Position numbers and translations under genes: made by a program. Below are positions 7,141 to 13,023 of a stretch of 29,235 bases of DNA, piece after piece; positions within the stretch are counted from its first letter, which is position 1, and every line of letters begins with the position of its first letter. The notes beneath the pieces are model-generated. The model saw nothing but the letters and a program-made list of their open reading frames with translations. It did no database searches and was not told where the DNA came from. This DNA is from an uncultured Hyphomicrobiales bacterium. GTDB lineage: Bacteria > Bacteroidota > Ignavibacteria > Kapaibacteriales > UBA2268. Where the stretch lies: NCBI GenBank assembly GCA_964386275.1, contig CAYLSY010000001.1, forward strand, positions 1 to 29,235. The letters run 5' to 3'.

Positions 7141-8436
7141 TTAGCGAACAAGTTGGACTTTTACGACAGCTCGAGATTCTTCGATATAATCCACGCTTAT
7201 AGGCTTGGCAATGAAGATTATTTCGTACAAACCCTGCTGCGCAAATTCTGATGCATGAAAAGTAACCTCCCATGGCACGTTATCCTTGTTTCGAGGAATA
7301 AATACATTTTCCAATAGCTTATCAACCAGTTTTCCATTCAAGTCATAGACATTGCAGTTCATAGTAACATCTTCTTCGACTTTATATTTAATCGTTGTTT
7401 CCGAAGAAAACGGGTTCTGGTCTGCAACAGCCTCGATAATAATGGTCGTAGGAATAGTTAAGCAAGCTGTATCAATGGGGATAATCTTGTTTTTCAGGTA
7501 ACTAAAATAGCATAATTCGTAGCAGTATTCATCTCCTCGACTTGATACTCTATCGTAATAATAAGCATAGTTTCTACCGGGGTTACGGGTTCCCAAACCG
7601 ATTAATTCTGAATTCTGCTTATAGTTTGCAATAGTATCCTTGAACTTGACTCGAGCGCCGGAAATATCGCTGAAAGCCTTTTTTCCTCGAACAAGATAAT
7701 AGCCTGCATTGTATGCTTCCTGAATACTTCGCCATTCTATAGCGACTCTTTTATCGCCTACATAATAAGCTGTGAAATCAACCACTTGGTTCAATGGTTC
7801 TTTGGGTGGTTCGACAGTGTATTTGACATAAGTCAAGCTGGAGTCGTCCATTTCGAGATTTTCGTTGGTAAAGGCATAAACAATTTGGTCTCGAATCAAG
7901 CTGTCTTTGCTTAACTTTGCGGCACAAGCCTGAAAGAAGAACCAAGGTTCGCGGAATGCCAGATTAATATCGACTCGCGATTGGTCTTTTGATGCCAAAA
8001 TGAAAGTTCCCAATTTCAATGATGAATCGGTCGGAATAGTTTTACAATTTTCATATAGTTCGGGACCGGAAAAGACAATCATTAAGCGTCCAGGACGAAC
8101 TTGAGGTATAATATGGTAACTCAAGGGGTCTGGCGCATTTCCGGTGATGGTACCGGGCTGCAATTCCGATGTATTGCTTTCGTATGATAAAGAGTATTTA
8201 TCTTTTGTAATGATTTGAGTTGTGTCGGCAAAAACAATTTCGAAAGTGGCGTTGGCAAACCTGTCCCATGCTTCGCTATTGCGTTGAATATGCAAATCGA
8301 ATTGAATGCTGTCAATATTTATATAATTTTGATTTTTAATGGTAACGGTGGCAAGCAGTTCACGAGCATCTCCCTGAGCAGTCAGATTCAGGAAAGAAGC
8401 AAAAAAAAACAATATTACTAACGAGGAATACTTCAT
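7141..8436 (-). CDS. Secreted 431-aa protein: putative cohesin-like/Ig N-terminal domain plus T9SS type-A-like C-terminal sorting domain
   Basis: Signal peptide ends NLTA-Q. IEWRSIQEAYNAGYYLVR resembles the 'W.T..E.NN.GF' Ig module of FCB secreted proteins. C-terminus QNPFSSETTIKY..NVYDLNGKLV..QGLY..KVQLVR resembles the CTD (PNPF..TTI.Y, YD..G, GxY, terminal K/R). The cohesin-like assignment is weak. Confidence 0.7.
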   Translation of the reverse strand: MKYSSLVILFFFASFLNLTAQGDARELLATVTIKNQNYINIDSIQFDLHIQRNSEAWDRFANATFEIVFADTTQIITKDKYSLSYESNTSELQPGTITGNAPDPLSYHIIPQVRPGRLMIVFSGPELYENCKTIPTDSSLKLGTFILASKDQSRVDINLAFREPWFFFQACAAKLSKDSLIRDQIVYAFTNENLEMDDSSLTYVKYTVEPPKEPLNQVVDFTAYYVGDKRVAIEWRSIQEAYNAGYYLVRGKKAFSDISGARVKFKDTIANYKQNSELIGLGTRNPGRNYAYYYDRVSSRGDEYCYELCYFSYLKNKIIPIDTACLTIPTTIIIEAVADQNPFSSETTIKYKVEEDVTMNCNVYDLNGKLVDKLLENVFIPRNKDNVPWEVTFHASEFAQQGLYEIIFIAKPISVDYIEESRAVVKVQLVR

Positions 8437-8448
8437 AATAGGGCGTAA

Positions 8449-10602
8449 TTATTTCTTTTTGGGAACATTAGTTGAGCGACCACGGTTATTCCAAGTATAA
8501 TTCCAATCGCGAGTATTAATATTTCCGGATAAAGTCAAATCGGCATTTAAATAGTCAAAATTATCTGCTGCAGTGTTGTTTGGGTCGCTAATCACATCCC
8601 AGACGCCGATATAATCATCATTGTTAATGATTCCGTCGCCGTTTATATCTCCGGCAATCATTCCGTAAAGAAGGCTGTTGTCTTGGAATTTATGTAATGG
8701 CTTTACTGCTGTCGCTTGTCCGAACAGTATTGCCGGATTGGTAAAATCGACTGAAGTCGGATAGGCGCTTGGATACATATGAATCGGGTCGCCAGTGATA
8801 ACAGCCAAATGGGAACGGTGATGGACAGCTATATAATAATCACCTGAATCAATATTGCCCAATGTCGAGTTTTTCAACCTCAAAGGAGAAACGCCGTCCA
8901 AATCAACGATAGCGCCGTTTTTGCTGAGAAAGCCAATGCGATAGCGGGATTCGCCGCCAAGCATTTGCGTGCGGAACTCAACCAGAATCCAATCTACAAC
9001 GGAATCTGGTATCGAAAGCACTGTATAGCTTGTTCGCTGTGGGTCCATGTTATAAGGATATATATCAGGTGGGGTTAACGGAATCAGGTTCTTTTCCTTT
9101 AAATCGGCTGCCATTGAGCCGTTGCGGTACGGACCTTCCAAATAAGCTCGAGCAGACAACAAAAGCAATCCAGCAGAAGGGAATCCAATTGCAAAATCGC
9201 CATATGGAGTAATTCCCTCGACGTTAGCAAACGCCCAGTCAGTCGAAACATCGAACTGCGGAACGCTTGAATTTGTAAACTCGTTCCATTTATTGTCAAG
9301 GTAGCGCATTAGTTTTAAACTCGATAAATCCAGCCCTTTAACTTCATCCGTCGTCGGTGTGGAAGGAGTATACCGCCAGCCATAACCGAATGTAATTGTA
9401 ACGCCGCTTTGAATCAAACGGTCGTCAGCGTCGCGGGCTTCGAGCGCAAAGTGGCGCATCACTTTGTTTATGCTGCCATCGGGTAACGGCGAGTATTTAT
9501 ATGGTTTTGTTCGGAAAATTAGCGAGCGGGTGCCGTTTTTCGCTGTTTCATCAGGGAAATAGGCATATGTATAAATGTTATTAAATAGCATTTTTTCGCC
9601 GACTTTTAATACATTTCGACGGACAGAACCGTCGATTTCGGCATTGCTTGTTGCAAAAACCGGCTCTTTTTCGCTGTTCAGCGTCAAAATATAGCGCCTT
9701 TCATCAGTAGGTTCAGTCTTGATATAAGAAGACAGGAACAATTCGTTATTGACGAACACATTCGTATCGAGAACCAAGCCGCCGACATTTTCTACCCTTA
9801 AATCGTGTAGCACACTCGTATCGAGCGGTATTTCGGGACCCTGTATCATCTCGCCGTTGCCGGCATAATGCACCGAAACATTCGCCCCGAACTGCGGCGC
9901 CACCTGAATCGAAGCGCCCGAATGTCGCTCAATCAAAACAGAATCCTCCAAAACGATTTTTTCCGGCGCTGCGGCATTGCGAAGCTGCCCACGCGAAAGC
10001 GTCAGCTTCTCTTCGATGGCAAAGCCGCCGCCATGGACATTGACACCGAAAGGATTATCAATGTTCAAACGAGAAAATCGCCCATTGCCGTGCAGGTCTT
10101 GAGCAGCAGTATCATTGTTCATGCGGACATCTTTCGGTCCCTTGTATTTGGCAGTGTTGACTACTGCGCCCTTGGCATGGACATCAGGGGAGTTTATTCC
10201 TATCCAGCCGGTAGTTAATACCGTCGAATCTTCGATTATCAACGAATCGAGAACAACCAAATTTCGAACTTTGTTATTGATATCCTTTTCGTCCCGGATG
10301 ATTTTTGTGGCTTTATTACCAATTACAAGTTGATTATAAATAATGTTCGGAACGGATTGTTGACCGGACAAAGTCGGAGCAAGGAATTCAACCCTGCCGC
10401 CGATTGAATCTGGCATTCCCTTTACTTCACCACGCTTGACTCTAATTACTCCGGTCTTTCCATTAAAAATTTGACCGCTATTATCAAGCACATTTTGAGC
10501 CGCTAAGGTTCCATAAGCAATTGTGAAAGAAAGGAAATAAAGTAATATCCGAAAAATGGGTGAATTTAAAGAAAAATCTATATGTAGGGTTGTAATCTTC
10601 AT
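8449..10602 (-). CDS. Secreted 717-aa protein: beta-solenoid plus connector domain plus C-terminal LEGPY/dockerin-like Ca-binding module
   Basis: Signal peptide ends TLAA-Q. N-terminal part aligns by eye with the 736-aa neighbour. C-terminal ~235 aa has YLEGPY, VVDWILVEFR, GDYYIAVHHRSHL, GDINGDGIINNDD and degenerate ADLTLSGNINTRD. Confidence 0.8.
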   Translation of the reverse strand: MKITTLHIDFSLNSPIFRILLYFLSFTIAYGTLAAQNVLDNSGQIFNGKTGVIRVKRGEVKGMPDSIGGRVEFLAPTLSGQQSVPNIIYNQLVIGNKATKIIRDEKDINNKVRNLVVLDSLIIEDSTVLTTGWIGINSPDVHAKGAVVNTAKYKGPKDVRMNNDTAAQDLHGNGRFSRLNIDNPFGVNVHGGGFAIEEKLTLSRGQLRNAAAPEKIVLEDSVLIERHSGASIQVAPQFGANVSVHYAGNGEMIQGPEIPLDTSVLHDLRVENVGGLVLDTNVFVNNELFLSSYIKTEPTDERRYILTLNSEKEPVFATSNAEIDGSVRRNVLKVGEKMLFNNIYTYAYFPDETAKNGTRSLIFRTKPYKYSPLPDGSINKVMRHFALEARDADDRLIQSGVTITFGYGWRYTPSTPTTDEVKGLDLSSLKLMRYLDNKWNEFTNSSVPQFDVSTDWAFANVEGITPYGDFAIGFPSAGLLLLSARAYLEGPYRNGSMAADLKEKNLIPLTPPDIYPYNMDPQRTSYTVLSIPDSVVDWILVEFRTQMLGGESRYRIGFLSKNGAIVDLDGVSPLRLKNSTLGNIDSGDYYIAVHHRSHLAVITGDPIHMYPSAYPTSVDFTNPAILFGQATAVKPLHKFQDNSLLYGMIAGDINGDGIINNDDYIGVWDVISDPNNTAADNFDYLNADLTLSGNINTRDWNYTWNNRGRSTNVPKKK

Positions 10603-10812: not shown

Positions 10813-13023
10813 TTATTGTCCAAGTATCAAGATACCTTCGTTGTTGAATGTACCTGCGTTTTGATAGTTTTGTGTGCCAAACTGAACAAGGTTTGAACCG
10901 GTTATGATGCTTGTAATCCACAAACCGTTCAAATCAGCTTGAGCTGTTGATTTGGGTAATGGAGTTGCGCCAATTGCAGCAACAGAAGCAGCATGGTTAT
11001 CGTTAATCAAAGTAAAGCCTGTTTCTTGCTTTGTCATAAGCACATTGTTACCGTTGTCTTCGTTGCCGATGATAAGAGCAGGATGATGATATCCATCGGT
11101 TTGGTCTGCAGGATTCGGGTCGTTCTGAATGGTAATCATATTAGCAATATAAATTTCTCCGCTTACAGGTGTATAGTGTGTTGCTTCAGGAGTAGTATTG
11201 CCTGATACTGGTGTTTCAAATGCGCCAGACGGAGCTGCAGTGATACCGGCATAAACAACGTGGCGAACGAATGCATTATCGTCTTCGGTCGGAACGGAGC
11301 CTTCATCCCAAGTATTCGGGTTTGTCCAACGACCGGCGGTCTTTGATATAAATTCGATGGGACCGGTGCGGAGCAAAATCTCGTGGCCGCTGGCAAAATT
11401 ACCATTTCCATTAGGAACATTCCCCGTAATTTCGCTTATACCTGACAATTCTGCATAAGCTAAAGTGTCGGCGGCAGCAGGCCCGCCATTAGTATAAGGA
11501 TTACCTGTACCCATTTTCTCAAGAGTACCTGCTTGGTCTTCATACATACGAACTCTTTGCCAAGTATGTAGAGCATCAGCAGGCCACCCATTATCTTCAT
11601 CATCGCGATAACCAACCGTTAAAGTAAGATTATCCGAAAAATCGCCGCCTGCGTTGCTAACATAAGAAAGGACAACTTTTCTTTTGACGTCGGTTGTCGA
11701 ATCAAAGCCAGTAGGAGGAAGGCCCGGTTGAACATTGAATGTCATTGAAGTAGGAACGTTAACGCCATCAGTAAAAGTCGCTTTTGTGTGCATGTTGTTA
11801 AACCGATAGCCCTCGGCGGGTTGACTTGCATATAAAATGTTGCGCTCGAAAGCGCCGACAACTTCTTCGACGTCGCCATAAGTAACAGCGCCGGCTGCGT
11901 TCAACATGTGCAGTGTATTTGTGCCCATCGCCAATGTATTAGCTACAGCTCCTGAGGTAGCAAAATTAAAGTCTTGGCAAATCCAAATATCACCCAATGC
12001 GACAGCGTCGCTGCCAATAAGATTCAAGCTACCGAATGGATTTGTAGTAACGGTAGCAACGATGTTTTGAGAAGCAGTGCCGTTATAAGTTAAAATTGAA
12101 GTACAATCAAAAGTCATGTTGGTAGCGGCGGCAAAAGCATTTGTAAATGCGCCGGTGATGATTAATTCAGCGGGAGTTCCTGTTCCATCACCCAAATGCA
12201 ATGTAGAACCGCCGGCTGCATCAGCTAAAGCAAGAGTGGCTCCGGCGCCGACCGTAACATCGCCCGAACCGTCGGGAATGTCTATATCACCAAGTGTTAC
12301 AGTAACATCGCCATTAAAGTCCGTTGTGCCAGCTCCGGCATGGATACCGGCATTTGCATTATCCAATGTTACAGTCCCGGTAAATGTAGAAGTTGCTGCG
12401 CCGAGTTGCAAATCACCAGTAACAGTAACATTTGCACTTGCTGTAACATTACTGACAACGGTAACTGTTTCTGCGTCGCGGATGGTTTTGACGCCACCGG
12501 AGAGGTCTAAGATGTTGTAATGTGTTCCACCGGTTGCTGTGCTTGTCGGGAAGATGTTTTGCGGATCGGTACCATCATAATAAATTGTTCCTGCATAAGT
12601 AACGTCTCCACCGGAAGTATAAAACGGCCAATTGTTCAAGTTATCATATCCTGTCAAGAAGGTTGCGCACTGAGTCCCAGTTATATGTACTCCGTCGGGA
12701 ACTGCTTTTGCAACTGTGCCAGTAAGTACAAGGTGTTCATAATAAGCGGCTTGAACCGGCTGCGAAGTGCCGCTTGTAGCTGCATATTCAACAGTGCCTT
12801 TAATAGAGTTACCGGCTGTACCCAATGGGGCAGAACCAGTAAATTTGTCGCTGGCGGCAGTGCTGCGGATGCGAATCACAGCGCCGCAAGATGCGTTATA
12901 AACGCCGAGCGAGTCAGTTCCATTGTTGTTGTTATGGAAGTTCTGCGCCAGCGCTTCGCCTGCGGTTAACCCTATAAACAAGAGCGCCACAAGGCATAAG
13001 TGAAGTAAATTGTTTCTTTTCAT
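10813..13023 (-). CDS. Secreted 736-aa beta-solenoid protein, single circularly permuted repeat unit; candidate major filament subunit
   Basis: Signal peptide ends EALA-Q. Contains solenoid rungs (GTIYYDGTDPQNI, ILTYNGTASQNI), a connector (EVVGAFERNI..FNN), a cap motif FISKTAGRWTNPNTW near aa 556, and ends FNNEGILILGQ. SD AAGGA 8 nt upstream; tandem stop TAA-TAG. Confidence 0.8.
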   Translation of the reverse strand: MKRNNLLHLCLVALLFIGLTAGEALAQNFHNNNNGTDSLGVYNASCGAVIRIRSTAASDKFTGSAPLGTAGNSIKGTVEYAATSGTSQPVQAAYYEHLVLTGTVAKAVPDGVHITGTQCATFLTGYDNLNNWPFYTSGGDVTYAGTIYYDGTDPQNIFPTSTATGGTHYNILDLSGGVKTIRDAETVTVVSNVTASANVTVTGDLQLGAATSTFTGTVTLDNANAGIHAGAGTTDFNGDVTVTLGDIDIPDGSGDVTVGAGATLALADAAGGSTLHLGDGTGTPAELIITGAFTNAFAAATNMTFDCTSILTYNGTASQNIVATVTTNPFGSLNLIGSDAVALGDIWICQDFNFATSGAVANTLAMGTNTLHMLNAAGAVTYGDVEEVVGAFERNILYASQPAEGYRFNNMHTKATFTDGVNVPTSMTFNVQPGLPPTGFDSTTDVKRKVVLSYVSNAGGDFSDNLTLTVGYRDDEDNGWPADALHTWQRVRMYEDQAGTLEKMGTGNPYTNGGPAAADTLAYAELSGISEITGNVPNGNGNFASGHEILLRTGPIEFISKTAGRWTNPNTWDEGSVPTEDDNAFVRHVVYAGITAAPSGAFETPVSGNTTPEATHYTPVSGEIYIANMITIQNDPNPADQTDGYHHPALIIGNEDNGNNVLMTKQETGFTLINDNHAASVAAIGATPLPKSTAQADLNGLWITSIITGSNLVQFGTQNYQNAGTFNNEGILILGQ

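What the first reader, a model, noticed from the sequence alone, without database searches (positions are those of the whole stretch)
7141..9165. Dockerin-like and cohesin-like adjacent pair as a possible non-cellulosomal anchoring joint
Seen: in the 717-aa protein the connector ends YGDFAIG, like the giant's connectors (NGDWVAG, FGDFLLA, HGDWTAG). The cap that normally follows is replaced by an LEGPY domain with two Ca-loop-like motifs (GDINGDGIINNDD ~8614-8652; degenerate DLTLSGNINTRD ~8505-8540). The next gene, 12 bp away, has an all-beta N-terminal domain and the only CTD. Established: dockerins use duplicated DxNxDGxxNxxD loops to bind cohesins, and type-A CTD cargo is surface-attached by the T9SS. 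Inference: the 431-aa protein is the surface-anchored receptor for the 717-aa chain terminator.
Basis: partly seen in the sequence, partly recalled or inferred. Interest (0 to 1): 0.75.

Follow-up and report, generated by a model that had tools for sequence, protein, structure and literature searches.

The report
Dockerin-cohesin joint anchoring a surface fibre
Two neighbouring genes of an uncultured Bacteroidota bacterium encode a calcium-loop "plug" (dockerin) at the end of a beta-helix fibre protein and a very diverged "socket" (cohesin-like fold) on a type IX secretion cargo protein, so the plug-and-socket device known from cellulosomes probably fastens a non-enzymatic surface fibre here; binding has not been measured.

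Summary
No binding has been measured.

- **The 717-aa protein** is a beta-helix, a beta-sandwich joint, a ~170-aa "LEGPY" beta domain and a two-loop dockerin.
- **The 431-aa protein,** 12 bp downstream, is a signal peptide, a cohesin-fold domain, an FN3 domain and a diverged T9SS type A CTD. The cohesin-fold domain matches only cohesins in the PDB (Z about 10) but is invisible to Pfam.
- **Predicted binding.** A complex prediction puts both dockerin helices on the strands that form the canonical cohesin binding face. The score is 0.91 against 0.34 for the best control. This mark was reached by 58 of 80 solved complexes and 2 of 110 mismatched pairs.
- **Conserved pairing.** The two genes are adjacent and co-oriented in 29 sampled genomes of the order. 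The same pairing recurs in 4 of 7 distant loci with different cargo.
- **Dedicated subtype.** The dockerin next to this cohesin is a distinct asymmetric subtype, present once per genome. Other LEGPY-dockerin modules in the same genomes are a different, symmetric subtype.

Untested: binding itself, calcium dependence, surface attachment, and how the CTD-less fibre proteins cross the outer membrane.

The principle is not new. Non-cellulosomal cohesin-dockerin pairs and T9SS-CTD scaffoldins have already been predicted in the literature. This scan has also reported T9SS-anchored cohesin-dockerin systems on other DNA before.

The parts
8449..10602 (-). Gene of the 717-aa protein (P0002): signal peptide, beta-helix, beta-sandwich joint, LEGPY domain, dockerin
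   Evidence: ORF. AF2 model with mean pLDDT 81. About 40 full-length homologues of 660-760 aa.
9643..10494 (-). Right-handed beta-helix, residues ~37-320
   Evidence: VIA matches to tailspikes, pectate lyases and autotransporter or TPS passengers, Z 10-13.
9184..9642 (-). Beta-sandwich 'joint', residues ~321-473, ending in YGDFAIG
   Evidence: BLASTP to the 736-aa paralogue: residues 322-409 against 387-480, E 8e-4. Motif position. pLDDT above 90.
8653..9177 (-). LEGPY beta domain, residues ~476-650. An undescribed support module that precedes the dockerin.
   Evidence: No Pfam or NCBIfam hit. pLDDT 75-90. Found with the dockerin at the C-terminus of many unrelated secreted proteins. In the complex model, residues 493-494, 500 and 630-644 touch the cohesin-like domain.
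8461..8652 (-). Dockerin-like module, residues 651-714: loop 1 (8614-8652), helix 1, linker, loop 2 (8506-8541), helix 3 with the WNNRGR tail
   Evidence: - Dockerin_1 reaches 14.2 bits, E 0.05, spanning both loops.
- 8 of 31 family members reach Dockerin_1 at E<=0.01.
- 12 of 15 weak PDB profile hits are dockerins.
- The module is disordered in the monomer model. The partner chain as a whole has pLDDT 93 in the complex.
8437..8448 (.). 12-bp intergenic spacer between the two genes
   Evidence: ORF coordinates.
7141..8436 (-). Gene of the 431-aa protein (P0001): signal peptide, cohesin-like domain, FN3, T9SS CTD
   Evidence: ORF. AF2 model with pLDDT 82. The family has 147 representatives at 50% identity, nearly all 410-470 aa.
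7795..8364 (-). Cohesin-like N-terminal beta-sandwich, residues 25-214
   Evidence: - VIA-align matches: 5nrk_A Z 10.3, 4uyp_A 10.2, 2vn5_A 10.2, 6kgc_A 9.9, 3kcp, 3ul4, 2xdh, 1ohz, 4ums.
- Atlas structure rows carry Cohesin or Dockerin Pfam families.
- No Pfam cohesin hit.
7447..7794 (-). FN3-like spacer domain, residues 215-330
   Evidence: VIA matches to single FN3 domains, Z 9-10.
7144..7446 (-). Diverged T9SS type A C-terminal domain, residues 331-431
   Evidence: - Por_Secre_tail reaches 14.5-17.8 bits, below the cut-off.
- PorU CTD (6za2_B) matches at Z 10.1.
- The family sub-profile hits 15 other ORF C-termini in the genome, and 14 of them are TIGR04183-positive.
- Distant family members carry a CTD that passes Pfam's threshold.

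Best explanation
The two genes encode a dedicated, non-cellulosomal dockerin-cohesin pair.

**Proposed mechanism**
1. Both proteins are exported by Sec. Each signal peptide ends in A|Q.
2. The 431-aa protein (cohesin-like domain, FN3 spacer, type A CTD) is carried across the outer membrane by the T9SS and is presumably left on the cell surface.
3. The 717-aa protein ends in a LEGPY support domain plus a two-loop, Ca-binding dockerin.
4. The two dockerin helices dock on strands 3, 5, 6 and 8 of the cohesin-like sandwich, with side contacts from the LEGPY domain. This arrangement resembles the X-module-dockerin dyads that fasten cellulosomes to cells.
5. The joint would tether the beta-helix unit of the 717-aa protein, and through it the paralogous 736-aa and 3997-aa beta-helix proteins of the operon, to the cell.

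**Shown here:** the folds, the motifs, homology to dockerins and to T9SS CTDs, strict gene pairing, and a predicted interface.

**Inferred:** actual binding, Ca dependence, surface retention and fibre assembly.
For: **Dockerin**
- The two 12-residue loops are conserved across 31 homologues.
- Dockerin_1 matches across both loops.
- 8 of 31 family members reach E<=0.01.
- 12 of 15 PDB profile hits are dockerins.

**Cohesin-like fold**
- All PDB matches confined to residues 25-214 are cohesins, Z 9.1-10.3.
- Atlas structural neighbours carry Cohesin or Dockerin Pfam families.

**Predicted complex**
- The score is 0.91 over three runs (0.89, 0.92, 0.91) against 0.34 for the best control. The mark was reached by 58 of 80 solved complexes and 2 of 110 mismatched pairs.
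- Cohesin-side contacts are 61-66, 108-123 and 167-172, which are strands 3, 5, 6 and 8 by the DSSP.
- Dockerin-side contacts fall at loop and helix positions 10, 11, 17 and 18 of repeat 2 (T697, R698, W704, N705) and 10, 17 and 18 of repeat 1 (N661, W668, D669).
- T697, N701, W668 and N705 are invariant or nearly so.

**Pairing across genomes**
- In the phylum sample, the full-length 431-aa family and one LEGPY-dockerin copy occur in exactly the same 16 of 23 genomes of the order. They are always adjacent and on the same strand.
- A second order sample adds 13 more adjacent pairs.
- In 4 of 7 distant relatives with Pfam-passing CTDs, the gene directly upstream again ends in LEGPY-dockerin. 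One of these is a 402-aa protein too short to hold the ~280-aa beta-helix.

**Specificity**
- The cohesin-adjacent dockerin is an asymmetric subtype with the tail T(R/K)D.N..WNNRGR.
- Other LEGPY-dockerins in the same genomes are a symmetric 'NAxDRVxxRN...QVP' subtype.
- The genome holds one such dockerin and one such cohesin-like domain.

**T9SS**
- PorU, SprA and PorV are present, along with about 80 CTD proteins over the cut-off.
Against: - **No experiment.** The complex predictor may score high from memory of solved cohesin-dockerin complexes, and no non-cognate cohesin or dockerin control could be run.
- **The cohesin assignment rests on fold only.** There is no Pfam cohesin hit in any of 15 family members or in 7 distant ones. 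Profile-profile comparison with 20 Pfam-positive cohesins of the phylum is inconclusive (P 0.011, probability 3.7%).
- **Predicted interface residues are not significantly more conserved than the rest** (p 0.08 on the cohesin side, 0.7 on the dockerin side).
- **Co-occurrence within the order could reflect gain and loss of the whole operon.**
- **This copy's second loop has T and S at Ca positions 3 and 5,** where the family consensus has N at position 3.
- **The dockerin is below Pfam's cut-off** (14.2 against 22.9 bits) **and so is the CTD** (at most 17.8 against 27 bits).
- **The genome has about 9 other ORFs with weak Pfam cohesin matches,** several of them CTD proteins. These are possible alternative partners.
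- **The export route of the CTD-less 717-aa protein is unknown.**
Confidence: 0.65

Rival explanations
1. The two proteins belong to one operon but do not bind each other. The LEGPY-dockerin is a generic C-terminal module that binds another cohesin, a glycan or the envelope in a Ca-dependent way. The 431-aa protein is an independent T9SS cargo with a cohesin-shaped sandwich used for something else.
For: - The module sits on many unrelated enzymes and giant proteins whose genomes lack a 431-aa homologue.
- Pfam cohesins are common in the phylum, in 101 of 401 genomes.
- About 9 other ORFs of this genome give weak Pfam cohesin matches, several of them CTD proteins.
- Interface conservation is not significant.
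- There is no sequence-level cohesin membership.
Against: - The dockerin next to the cohesin-like gene is a distinct subtype, present once per genome and always adjacent.
- Adjacency recurs in distant loci with different cargo.
- The complex prediction scores 0.91 against 0.34 for the best control (58 of 80 solved complexes and 2 of 110 mismatched pairs reached the mark) and shows canonical geometry.
Confidence: 0.17
2. The pair binds, but the 431-aa protein is not a static anchor. It is released after CTD cleavage and serves as a cap, adaptor or distal piece of the fibre, or the complex is shed.
For: - Type A CTD cargo is released rather than anchored in several Bacteroidota (my knowledge, not tested here).
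- Nothing in the sequence shows attachment.
- In related loci an OmpA-family gene follows the pair and could be the real envelope anchor.
Against: - Anchoring scaffoldins with a single cohesin are the usual partners of X-dockerin dyads (established knowledge).
- The FN3 spacer plus CTD layout resembles surface-displayed T9SS cargo.
- The OmpA gene is not next to the pair in this window.
Confidence: 0.1
3. The resemblance is fortuitous. The N-domain is a generic beta-sandwich, the C-terminal loops are ordinary EF-hand-like Ca sites that stabilise the LEGPY domain, and the high complex score is an artefact.
For: - Z about 10 is only moderately above the 7-8 typical of models with no clear match (note).
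- Pfam scores are below the cut-offs.
- The dockerin is disordered in the monomer model.
Against: - Ten different cohesin entries, and no other fold, match the N-domain alone.
- Dockerins dominate the PDB profile hits.
- Enzyme-linked relatives of the module show the near-identical internal duplication typical of dockerins, and some pass Pfam PF00404.
- The unrelated-protein controls scored 0.00, 0.34 and 0.00.
Confidence: 0.05

Closest known systems
Type II/III X-module-dockerin : cohesin anchoring pairs of cellulosomes (C. thermocellum CipA XDocII-SdbA; A. cellulolyticus ScaA XDoc-ScaB Coh3, PDB 4u3s/4wi0; R. flavefaciens CttA XDoc-ScaE)
   Same: - A beta-sandwich support module sits directly in front of a two-repeat dockerin at the C-terminus of a structural protein.
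- The partner is a single cohesin on a cell-surface anchoring protein.
- In the model both dockerin helices and the support module touch the cohesin.
- The only dockerin-containing PDB chains that Foldseek finds for the 717-aa model are XDoc chains, but the matches are not significant (E 0.46-0.73).
   Different: - The support module (LEGPY) has no detectable sequence or significant structural relation to X modules.
- The anchor is a T9SS CTD of a diderm cell, not SLH repeats or a sortase signal.
- The cargo is a beta-helix fibre protein, not a scaffoldin loaded with enzymes.
- The cohesin is not recognised by Pfam PF00963.
Type I cohesin-dockerin complexes (for example C. thermocellum 1OHZ, C. 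cellulolyticum 2VN5, A. cellulolyticus 4UYP/5NRK)
   Same: - These are the best structural matches of the N-domain (Z 9.3-10.3, about 130 residues aligned).
- Both have two Ca loops of the D-x-N-x-D-G-x-x-x-x-x-D type.
- The predicted contacts use strands 3, 5, 6 and 8 and dockerin positions 10, 11, 17 and 18. That these are the canonical binding face and recognition positions is from my knowledge.
   Different: - Sequence identity is 10-13%.
- The dockerin repeats here are asymmetric, so a dual binding mode is unlikely.
- There is no enzyme cargo and no multi-cohesin scaffoldin in the operon.
Predicted scaffoldin-like protein with tandem cohesins and a T9SS CTD in Candidatus Stygibacter (Cloacimonadota), PMC8542988
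   Same: A cohesin-bearing protein is proposed to be fixed to a diderm cell surface through a T9SS CTD and to hold dockerin-tagged secreted proteins. That proposal is also in silico only.
   Different: - That system has Pfam-recognisable cohesins in tandem with CBMs, and enzyme cargo (a cellulosome-like complex).
- Here there is a single hidden cohesin, a dedicated 1:1 gene pair, and fibre cargo.
Cag_2037 (N-terminal cohesin) / Cag_2038 (C-terminal dockerin) neighbouring genes of Chlorobium chlorochromatii, bioRxiv 10.64898/2026.03.19.712371
   Same: Adjacent genes in a related lineage encode filamentous non-cellulosomal surface proteins that are predicted to join through a C-terminal dockerin and an N-terminal cohesin (AlphaFold 3 in that work).
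   Different: - Those are BIg-repeat and RTX proteins exported by a T1SS, with domains that InterPro detects.
- They have no LEGPY module and no T9SS CTD on the cohesin protein.

Membership tests
Dockerin (Pfam PF00404, type I dockerin repeat pair) | Two tandem ~22-residue repeats, each a 12-residue EF-hand-like Ca loop followed by a helix | tested here: met
   Loop 1 is 652-663 (D, N, D and D at positions 1, 3, 5 and 12). Loop 2 is 688-699 (D, T, S and D). Each loop is followed by a W-containing helix. Both loops are conserved in 31 homologues.
Dockerin (Pfam PF00404, type I dockerin repeat pair) | Score over the Pfam gathering threshold (22.9 bits) | tested here: not met
   - This copy reaches 14.2 bits (E 0.05) on the fragment and nothing on the whole protein.
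- At family level, 8 of 31 members reach E<=0.01, the best at 6.5e-6.
- Several homologues carry a precomputed PF00404.
- 12 of 15 PDB profile hits are dockerins.
Dockerin (Pfam PF00404, type I dockerin repeat pair) | Ca-dependent binding to a cohesin | not testable with these tools
   Only a prediction is available: 0.91 against 0.34 for the best control, a mark reached by 58 of 80 solved complexes and 2 of 110 mismatched pairs.
Cohesin (Pfam PF00963) | Nine-stranded flattened beta-sandwich (jelly-roll) of about 140 residues | tested here: met
   Ten cohesin entries match residues 25-214 at Z 9.1-10.3, with 128-141 residues aligned. No other fold matches this domain alone. Atlas structure rows carry Cohesin or Dockerin Pfam families.
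Cohesin (Pfam PF00963) | Sequence-profile membership | tested here: not met
   - There is no PF00963 hit, even at E<=10, on residues 1-215.
- None of 15 family members hits it, and none of 7 distant relatives does.
- The window is absent from the genome's PF00963 scan.
- hhalign against 20 Pfam-positive cohesins of the phylum gives P 0.011 and probability 3.7% over 78 collinear columns. Control domains give P 0.037-0.67.
Cohesin (Pfam PF00963) | Dockerin bound on the 8-3-6-5 sheet | tested here: inconclusive
   The predicted contacts (61-66, 108-123, 167-172) fall on the strands I number 3, 5, 6 and 8 from the DSSP string. This is a model only, and no coordinates were inspected.
T9SS type A C-terminal domain (TIGR04183 / PF18962) | Score over the curated cut-offs (23 / 27 bits) | tested here: not met
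   The scores are 14.7 bits for TIGR04183 and 14.5-17.8 bits for PF18962, covering only the first half of the profile. None of 15 family members reaches E<=0.01.
T9SS type A C-terminal domain (TIGR04183 / PF18962) | Homology to, and fold of, known CTDs at the extreme C-terminus | tested here: met
   - The sub-profile of residues 331-431 hits 15 other ORFs of the genome, each with its main match at the extreme C-terminus. 14 of them are TIGR04183-positive.
- The PorU CTD matches at Z 10.1 with 18% identity.
- Distant N-domain relatives carry PF18962 at 29-46 bits.
T9SS type A C-terminal domain (TIGR04183 / PF18962) | T9SS machinery present in the genome | tested here: met
   PorU sortase scores 857 bits, SprA 771 bits, and PorV 257 bits when summed. 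88 CTD matches were found, about 80 of them over the cut-off.
T9SS type A C-terminal domain (TIGR04183 / PF18962) | CTD cleavage by PorU and attachment to the surface | not testable with these tools
   This needs proteomics or a T9SS mutant.
X-module-dockerin dyad (type II/III) | The support module next to the dockerin is homologous to X modules and contacts the cohesin | tested here: inconclusive
   Contacts are predicted for LEGPY residues 493-494, 500 and 630-644. Foldseek hits to XDoc chains 4u3s_B and 4wi0_B are not significant (E 0.46 and 0.73). There is no sequence relation. This is an analogy, not membership.

The most novel reading that the evidence does not exclude
The cohesin-CTD protein may be a carrier as well as an anchor. 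The four large operon proteins have Sec signals but no CTD or other recognisable outer-membrane export signal. The dockerin-cohesin complex could therefore form in the periplasm, and the CTD-less fibre protein(s) could hitch-hike through the T9SS translocon on the one CTD-bearing partner. If so, the many LEGPY-dockerin tags on CTD-less enzymes and giant proteins in related lineages would amount to a second, indirect T9SS targeting signal.
Probability: 0.1. Interest if true: 0.85.

Novelty: new variant of a known kind. Interest (0 to 1): 0.55.

Why it matters
**A reuse of the cellulosome joint.** If the pair binds, the cohesin-dockerin joint has been adapted in diderm Bacteroidota to fasten a structural beta-helix fibre to a T9SS cargo protein. 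That would identify the base of an otherwise uncharacterised five-gene surface-fibre operon.

**Two building blocks that annotation misses.**
- A cohesin-fold family that Pfam does not see. It has 147 clusters at 50% identity, and almost all members have an FN3 plus CTD layout.
- The LEGPY-dockerin dyad, which ends many secreted enzymes and giant proteins of up to 6,239 aa in related lineages.

Recognising both would let "orphan" dockerins in these phyla be matched to sockets.

**An experimental handle on an export puzzle.** It would also help address how CTD-less giant proteins are displayed or exported.

**A compact Ca-dependent tag pair.** The dyad and its socket could serve as a tag pair for surface display in T9SS organisms.

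The principle itself is not new, so the gain is in scope and parts rather than in concept.

Tried and rejected
- **Whole-protein Pfam and NCBIfam scans** gave nothing usable for either protein.
- **Foldseek with the whole 431-aa model** (PDB and AFDB Swiss-Prot) returned only multi-domain FN3/Ig arrays with TM below 0.3. It said nothing about the N-domain. Only the exhaustive VIA search resolved the domains.
- **VIA and Foldseek with the 717-aa model** were dominated by the beta-helix.
- **A sequence bridge to true cohesins failed.**
  - The A1 profile against PDB sequences found only a weak hit to the C. perfringens NagJ cohesin-FN3 construct, at the FN3 junction (E 0.21).
  - hhalign against 20 Pfam-positive cohesins was inconclusive.
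  - The exhaustive profile search found no Pfam-cohesin protein. Two of its tail hits (P0215, F-box repeats; P0226, an FN3 array) are false positives.
- **Enrichment of conserved residues in the predicted interface** was not significant.
- **Co-occurrence of LEGPY-dockerin with Pfam cohesins across the phylum** was 17 of 50 against 84 of 351 genomes. This is no clear signal, and it is confounded by phylogeny.
- **An apparent covariation** (the L040 pair has both a deviant dockerin tail and a deviant cohesin strand-3 motif) is anecdotal, because that pair is the most diverged overall.
- **Rejected idea:** that one 431-type cohesin serves all LEGPY-dockerins of a genome. The other modules are a different dockerin subtype.

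Full report
**Observation.** The window carries a minus-strand operon of five genes: 1225 aa, 3997 aa, 736 aa, 717 aa and 431 aa. It converges on an efflux operon.
- The 717-aa ORF (8449-10602) and the 431-aa ORF (7141-8436) are 12 bp apart.
- The strict Ca-loop pattern occurs once in 1.27 million ORF residues of the 2.57-Mb draft genome, in this protein.
- Both loops are conserved in 31 full-length homologues.
- One correction: the loops are not in the LEGPY domain. They form a separate dockerin-sized module after it.

**Anatomy of the 717-aa protein.** The AF2 model has pLDDT 81.
- Residues 37-320 form a right-handed beta-helix. It matches tailspikes, pectate lyases and autotransporter or TPS passengers at Z 10-13.
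- Residues 321-473 form a beta-sandwich joint. It is homologous to part of the 736-aa paralogue (E 8e-4).
- Residues ~476-650 form a beta-rich LEGPY domain, and the last ~65 residues are disordered in the monomer.
- That tail reads as a dockerin:
  - Dockerin_1 aligns over profile positions 1-48, spanning both loops, at 14.2 bits. This is below the 22.9-bit cut-off.
  - 8 of 31 family members reach E<=0.01.
  - 12 of the 15 weak hits of the family profile against all PDB sequences are dockerins.
  - Atlas neighbours carry PF00404.

**Anatomy of the 431-aa protein.** The AF2 model has pLDDT 82 and shows three beta domains. In an exhaustive alignment against 48,161 PDB chains:
- Residues 25-214 match ten cohesin entries (5nrk, 4uyp, 2vn5, 6kgc, 3kcp, 3ul4, 2xdh, 1ohz, 4ums and others) at Z 9.1-10.3. 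About 130 of 140 residues align, and no other fold matches this domain alone.
- Residues 215-330 are an FN3 domain.
- Residues 331-431 match, among others, the CTD of PorU (Z 10.1).

ESM Atlas structural neighbours of residues 22-215 include clusters with Cohesin, Dockerin and Por_Secre_tail Pfam families.

At the sequence level the cohesin assignment fails.
- No PF00963 hit appears in the protein, in its 15 relatives, or in 7 distant relatives.
- Profile-profile comparison with 20 Pfam-positive cohesins of the same phylum is only marginally better than control domains (P 0.011 against 0.037-0.67).
- I therefore call the domain cohesin-like by fold, not a demonstrated member of the cohesin family.

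The C-terminal domain is below the curated CTD cut-offs. Other evidence identifies it as a diverged type A CTD.
- A sub-profile of it finds 15 other ORFs of the genome, each with its main match at the extreme C-terminus. 14 of them are TIGR04183-positive.
- Distant relatives of the N-domain carry Pfam-passing CTDs.

The genome encodes PorU, SprA and PorV.

**Predicted binding.** I submitted residues 22-215 of the 431-aa protein, two Ca ions and residues 476-717 of the 717-aa protein, each protein with its family alignment.
- The three runs scored 0.89, 0.92 and 0.91. The controls scored 0.00, 0.34 and 0.00.
- The tool's verdict is that the model supports binding. The mark was reached by 58 of 80 solved complexes and 2 of 110 mismatched pairs.
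- The partner chain, whose dockerin tail is disordered in the monomer model, has pLDDT 93 in the complex.
- On the dockerin side the contacts are N661, 664-665, W668, D669 and 671-672 (helix 1), and 692-705 (loop 2 and helix 3, including T697, R698, W704 and N705).
- These are the positions 10, 11, 17 and 18 that carry specificity in known dockerins (my knowledge).
- On the cohesin side the contacts (61-66, 108-123, 167-172) are the strands I number 3, 5, 6 and 8 from the DSSP string. This is the canonical binding sheet.
- LEGPY residues 493-494, 500 and 630-644 also touch the cohesin-like domain, as X modules do in type II/III complexes (my knowledge).
- Caveats: the predictor may be recalling solved cohesin-dockerin complexes. 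No non-cognate control was possible. Conservation is not significantly enriched in the interface.

**Comparative genomics.** This is the strongest independent evidence.
- *Phylum sample (401 genomes).* The full-length 431-aa family occurs in 16 genomes, all within the window's order. One LEGPY-dockerin copy occurs in exactly those 16 and in none of the other 7 genomes of the order. In all 16 the dockerin gene ends just upstream of the cohesin-like gene on the same strand.
- *Second sample of the order.* This adds 13 more adjacent pairs, and every N-domain hit lies directly downstream of the best LEGPY-dockerin hit. Three LEGPY-positive genomes (G405, G417, G418) remained unresolved with the single-sequence query.
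- *Public contigs.* The order giant, ~710 aa, ~685 aa, ~430 aa is conserved in one contig. Two shorter contigs show the promoter-distal part of the same order.
- *The whole-operon objection.* This pattern alone could be whole-operon inheritance, but two further results argue for a specific coupling of the two modules.
  1. An exhaustive profile search found 147 clusters of the N-domain family. I examined seven distant members with canonical CTDs, and in four the gene directly upstream again ends in LEGPY-dockerin. One of these is a 402-aa protein too short to hold the ~280-aa beta-helix.
  2. The dockerin next to the cohesin-like gene is an asymmetric subtype with the tail T(R/K)D.N..WNNRGR. 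The LEGPY-dockerins that end enzymes and giant ORFs, including up to 11 others in the same genome, have near-identical internal repeats of a different 'NAxDRVxxRN...QVP' type.

The result is one dedicated plug and one dedicated socket per genome.

**The LEGPY-dockerin dyad is a mobile module.**
- It terminates SGNH esterases, amylases, peptidases, discoidin and FG-GAP proteins, and ORFs of up to 6,239 aa. The sources name some of these contigs as Ignavibacteria, Kapabacteria and other Bacteroidota MAGs.
- It is sometimes fused behind Pfam cohesins, as in an adaptor scaffoldin (P0065; G189 contig C12).
- Its fold could not be assigned.

**Mechanism.** My best reading, at about 0.65, has four steps.
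1. Both proteins are exported by Sec.
2. The T9SS exports the 431-aa protein, and its CTD is processed.
3. Its cohesin-like head, held out on an FN3 spacer, captures the Ca-loaded dockerin of the 717-aa protein, with the LEGPY domain bracing the joint.
4. The beta-helix of the 717-aa protein then connects to the paralogous beta-helix proteins of the operon. Earlier notes of this scan propose end-to-end docking; I did not test this.

Folds, motifs, pairing and a predicted interface are shown here. Binding, Ca dependence, surface retention and fibre assembly are inferred. Rivals are listed separately. The main open problem is how the CTD-less proteins cross the outer membrane, which leaves room for a hitch-hiking reading.

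**Relation to what is known.**
- Non-cellulosomal cohesins and dockerins are long known (Peer et al. 2009, as cited in PMC8542988).
- A cohesin scaffoldin with a T9SS CTD was predicted in Cloacimonadota (PMC8542988).
- A neighbouring cohesin/dockerin gene pair joining filamentous surface proteins was modelled in Chlorobium chlorochromatii (bioRxiv 10.64898/2026.03.19.712371).
- Pfam cohesins occur in 101 of 401 sampled genomes of this phylum.
- This scan has reported T9SS-anchored cohesin-dockerin systems on other DNA. One of them is a dockerin plus support-domain tail likened to XDoc.

The finding is therefore a new variant of a known kind. What is new:
- a Pfam-invisible cohesin-fold family fused to FN3 and a CTD;
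- an undescribed LEGPY support module;
- a dedicated 1:1 pair at the base of a beta-helix fibre operon.

I found no paper describing the LEGPY module or this operon.

Noticed in passing
G000 contigs C4 (7461-8111), C3 (8454-9155; 14401-15021), C6 (5034-6989), C81, C267, C171: Several other T9SS cargo ORFs of the same genome have weak to passing Pfam cohesin matches just upstream of their CTDs. One 2107-aa ORF on C6 holds a Pfam dockerin, a cohesin-like segment and a CTD together. These are possible alternative sockets, or a self-binding arrangement.
   Followed up: partly
L039:527-2704 (protein P0225): A 725-aa metagenomic protein has three tandem copies of the cohesin-like N-domain followed by a Pfam-passing T9SS CTD. 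This is a scaffoldin-like layout built from the hidden cohesin family. No dockerin gene is visible on its short contig.
   Followed up: partly
G189:C12:226-2295; protein P0065: Single ORFs carry Pfam cohesin domain(s) followed by a LEGPY(-dockerin) module, which is the layout of an adaptor scaffoldin.
   Followed up: no
L046-L058 (G401, G407, G408, G413, G418): Up to 12 LEGPY-dockerin modules per genome end giant ORFs of 1,000-6,239 aa. They share a symmetric 'NAxDRVxxRN...(T/S)QVP' dockerin subtype whose partner is unknown.
   Followed up: partly
L001:11345-17277; L003:7344-11612: In related genomes the pair is followed by an OmpA-family gene, a response regulator and a CHASE-domain histidine kinase. 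L001 also has a WD40 beta-propeller gene. In this window the pair instead abuts a convergent TolC gene.
   Followed up: no
L004:4781-5002: A 73-aa HicB-like antitoxin ORF sits between the dockerin gene and the cohesin-like gene in one relative. The pair therefore tolerates an insertion.
   Followed up: no
window 8374-8436, 10495-10602, 12946-13023: The signal peptides of the 431, 717 and 736-aa proteins all end in A-Q. This fits the Bacteroidota rule of a glutamine at the mature N-terminus of signal peptidase I substrates (my knowledge).
   Followed up: no
window 7900-7960 (residues ~160-190 of the 431-aa protein): The stretch between strands 8 and 9 of the cohesin-like domain has pLDDT below 60 in the monomer model, yet it provides many predicted contacts in the complex. 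It may be a flap that orders on binding.
   Followed up: no
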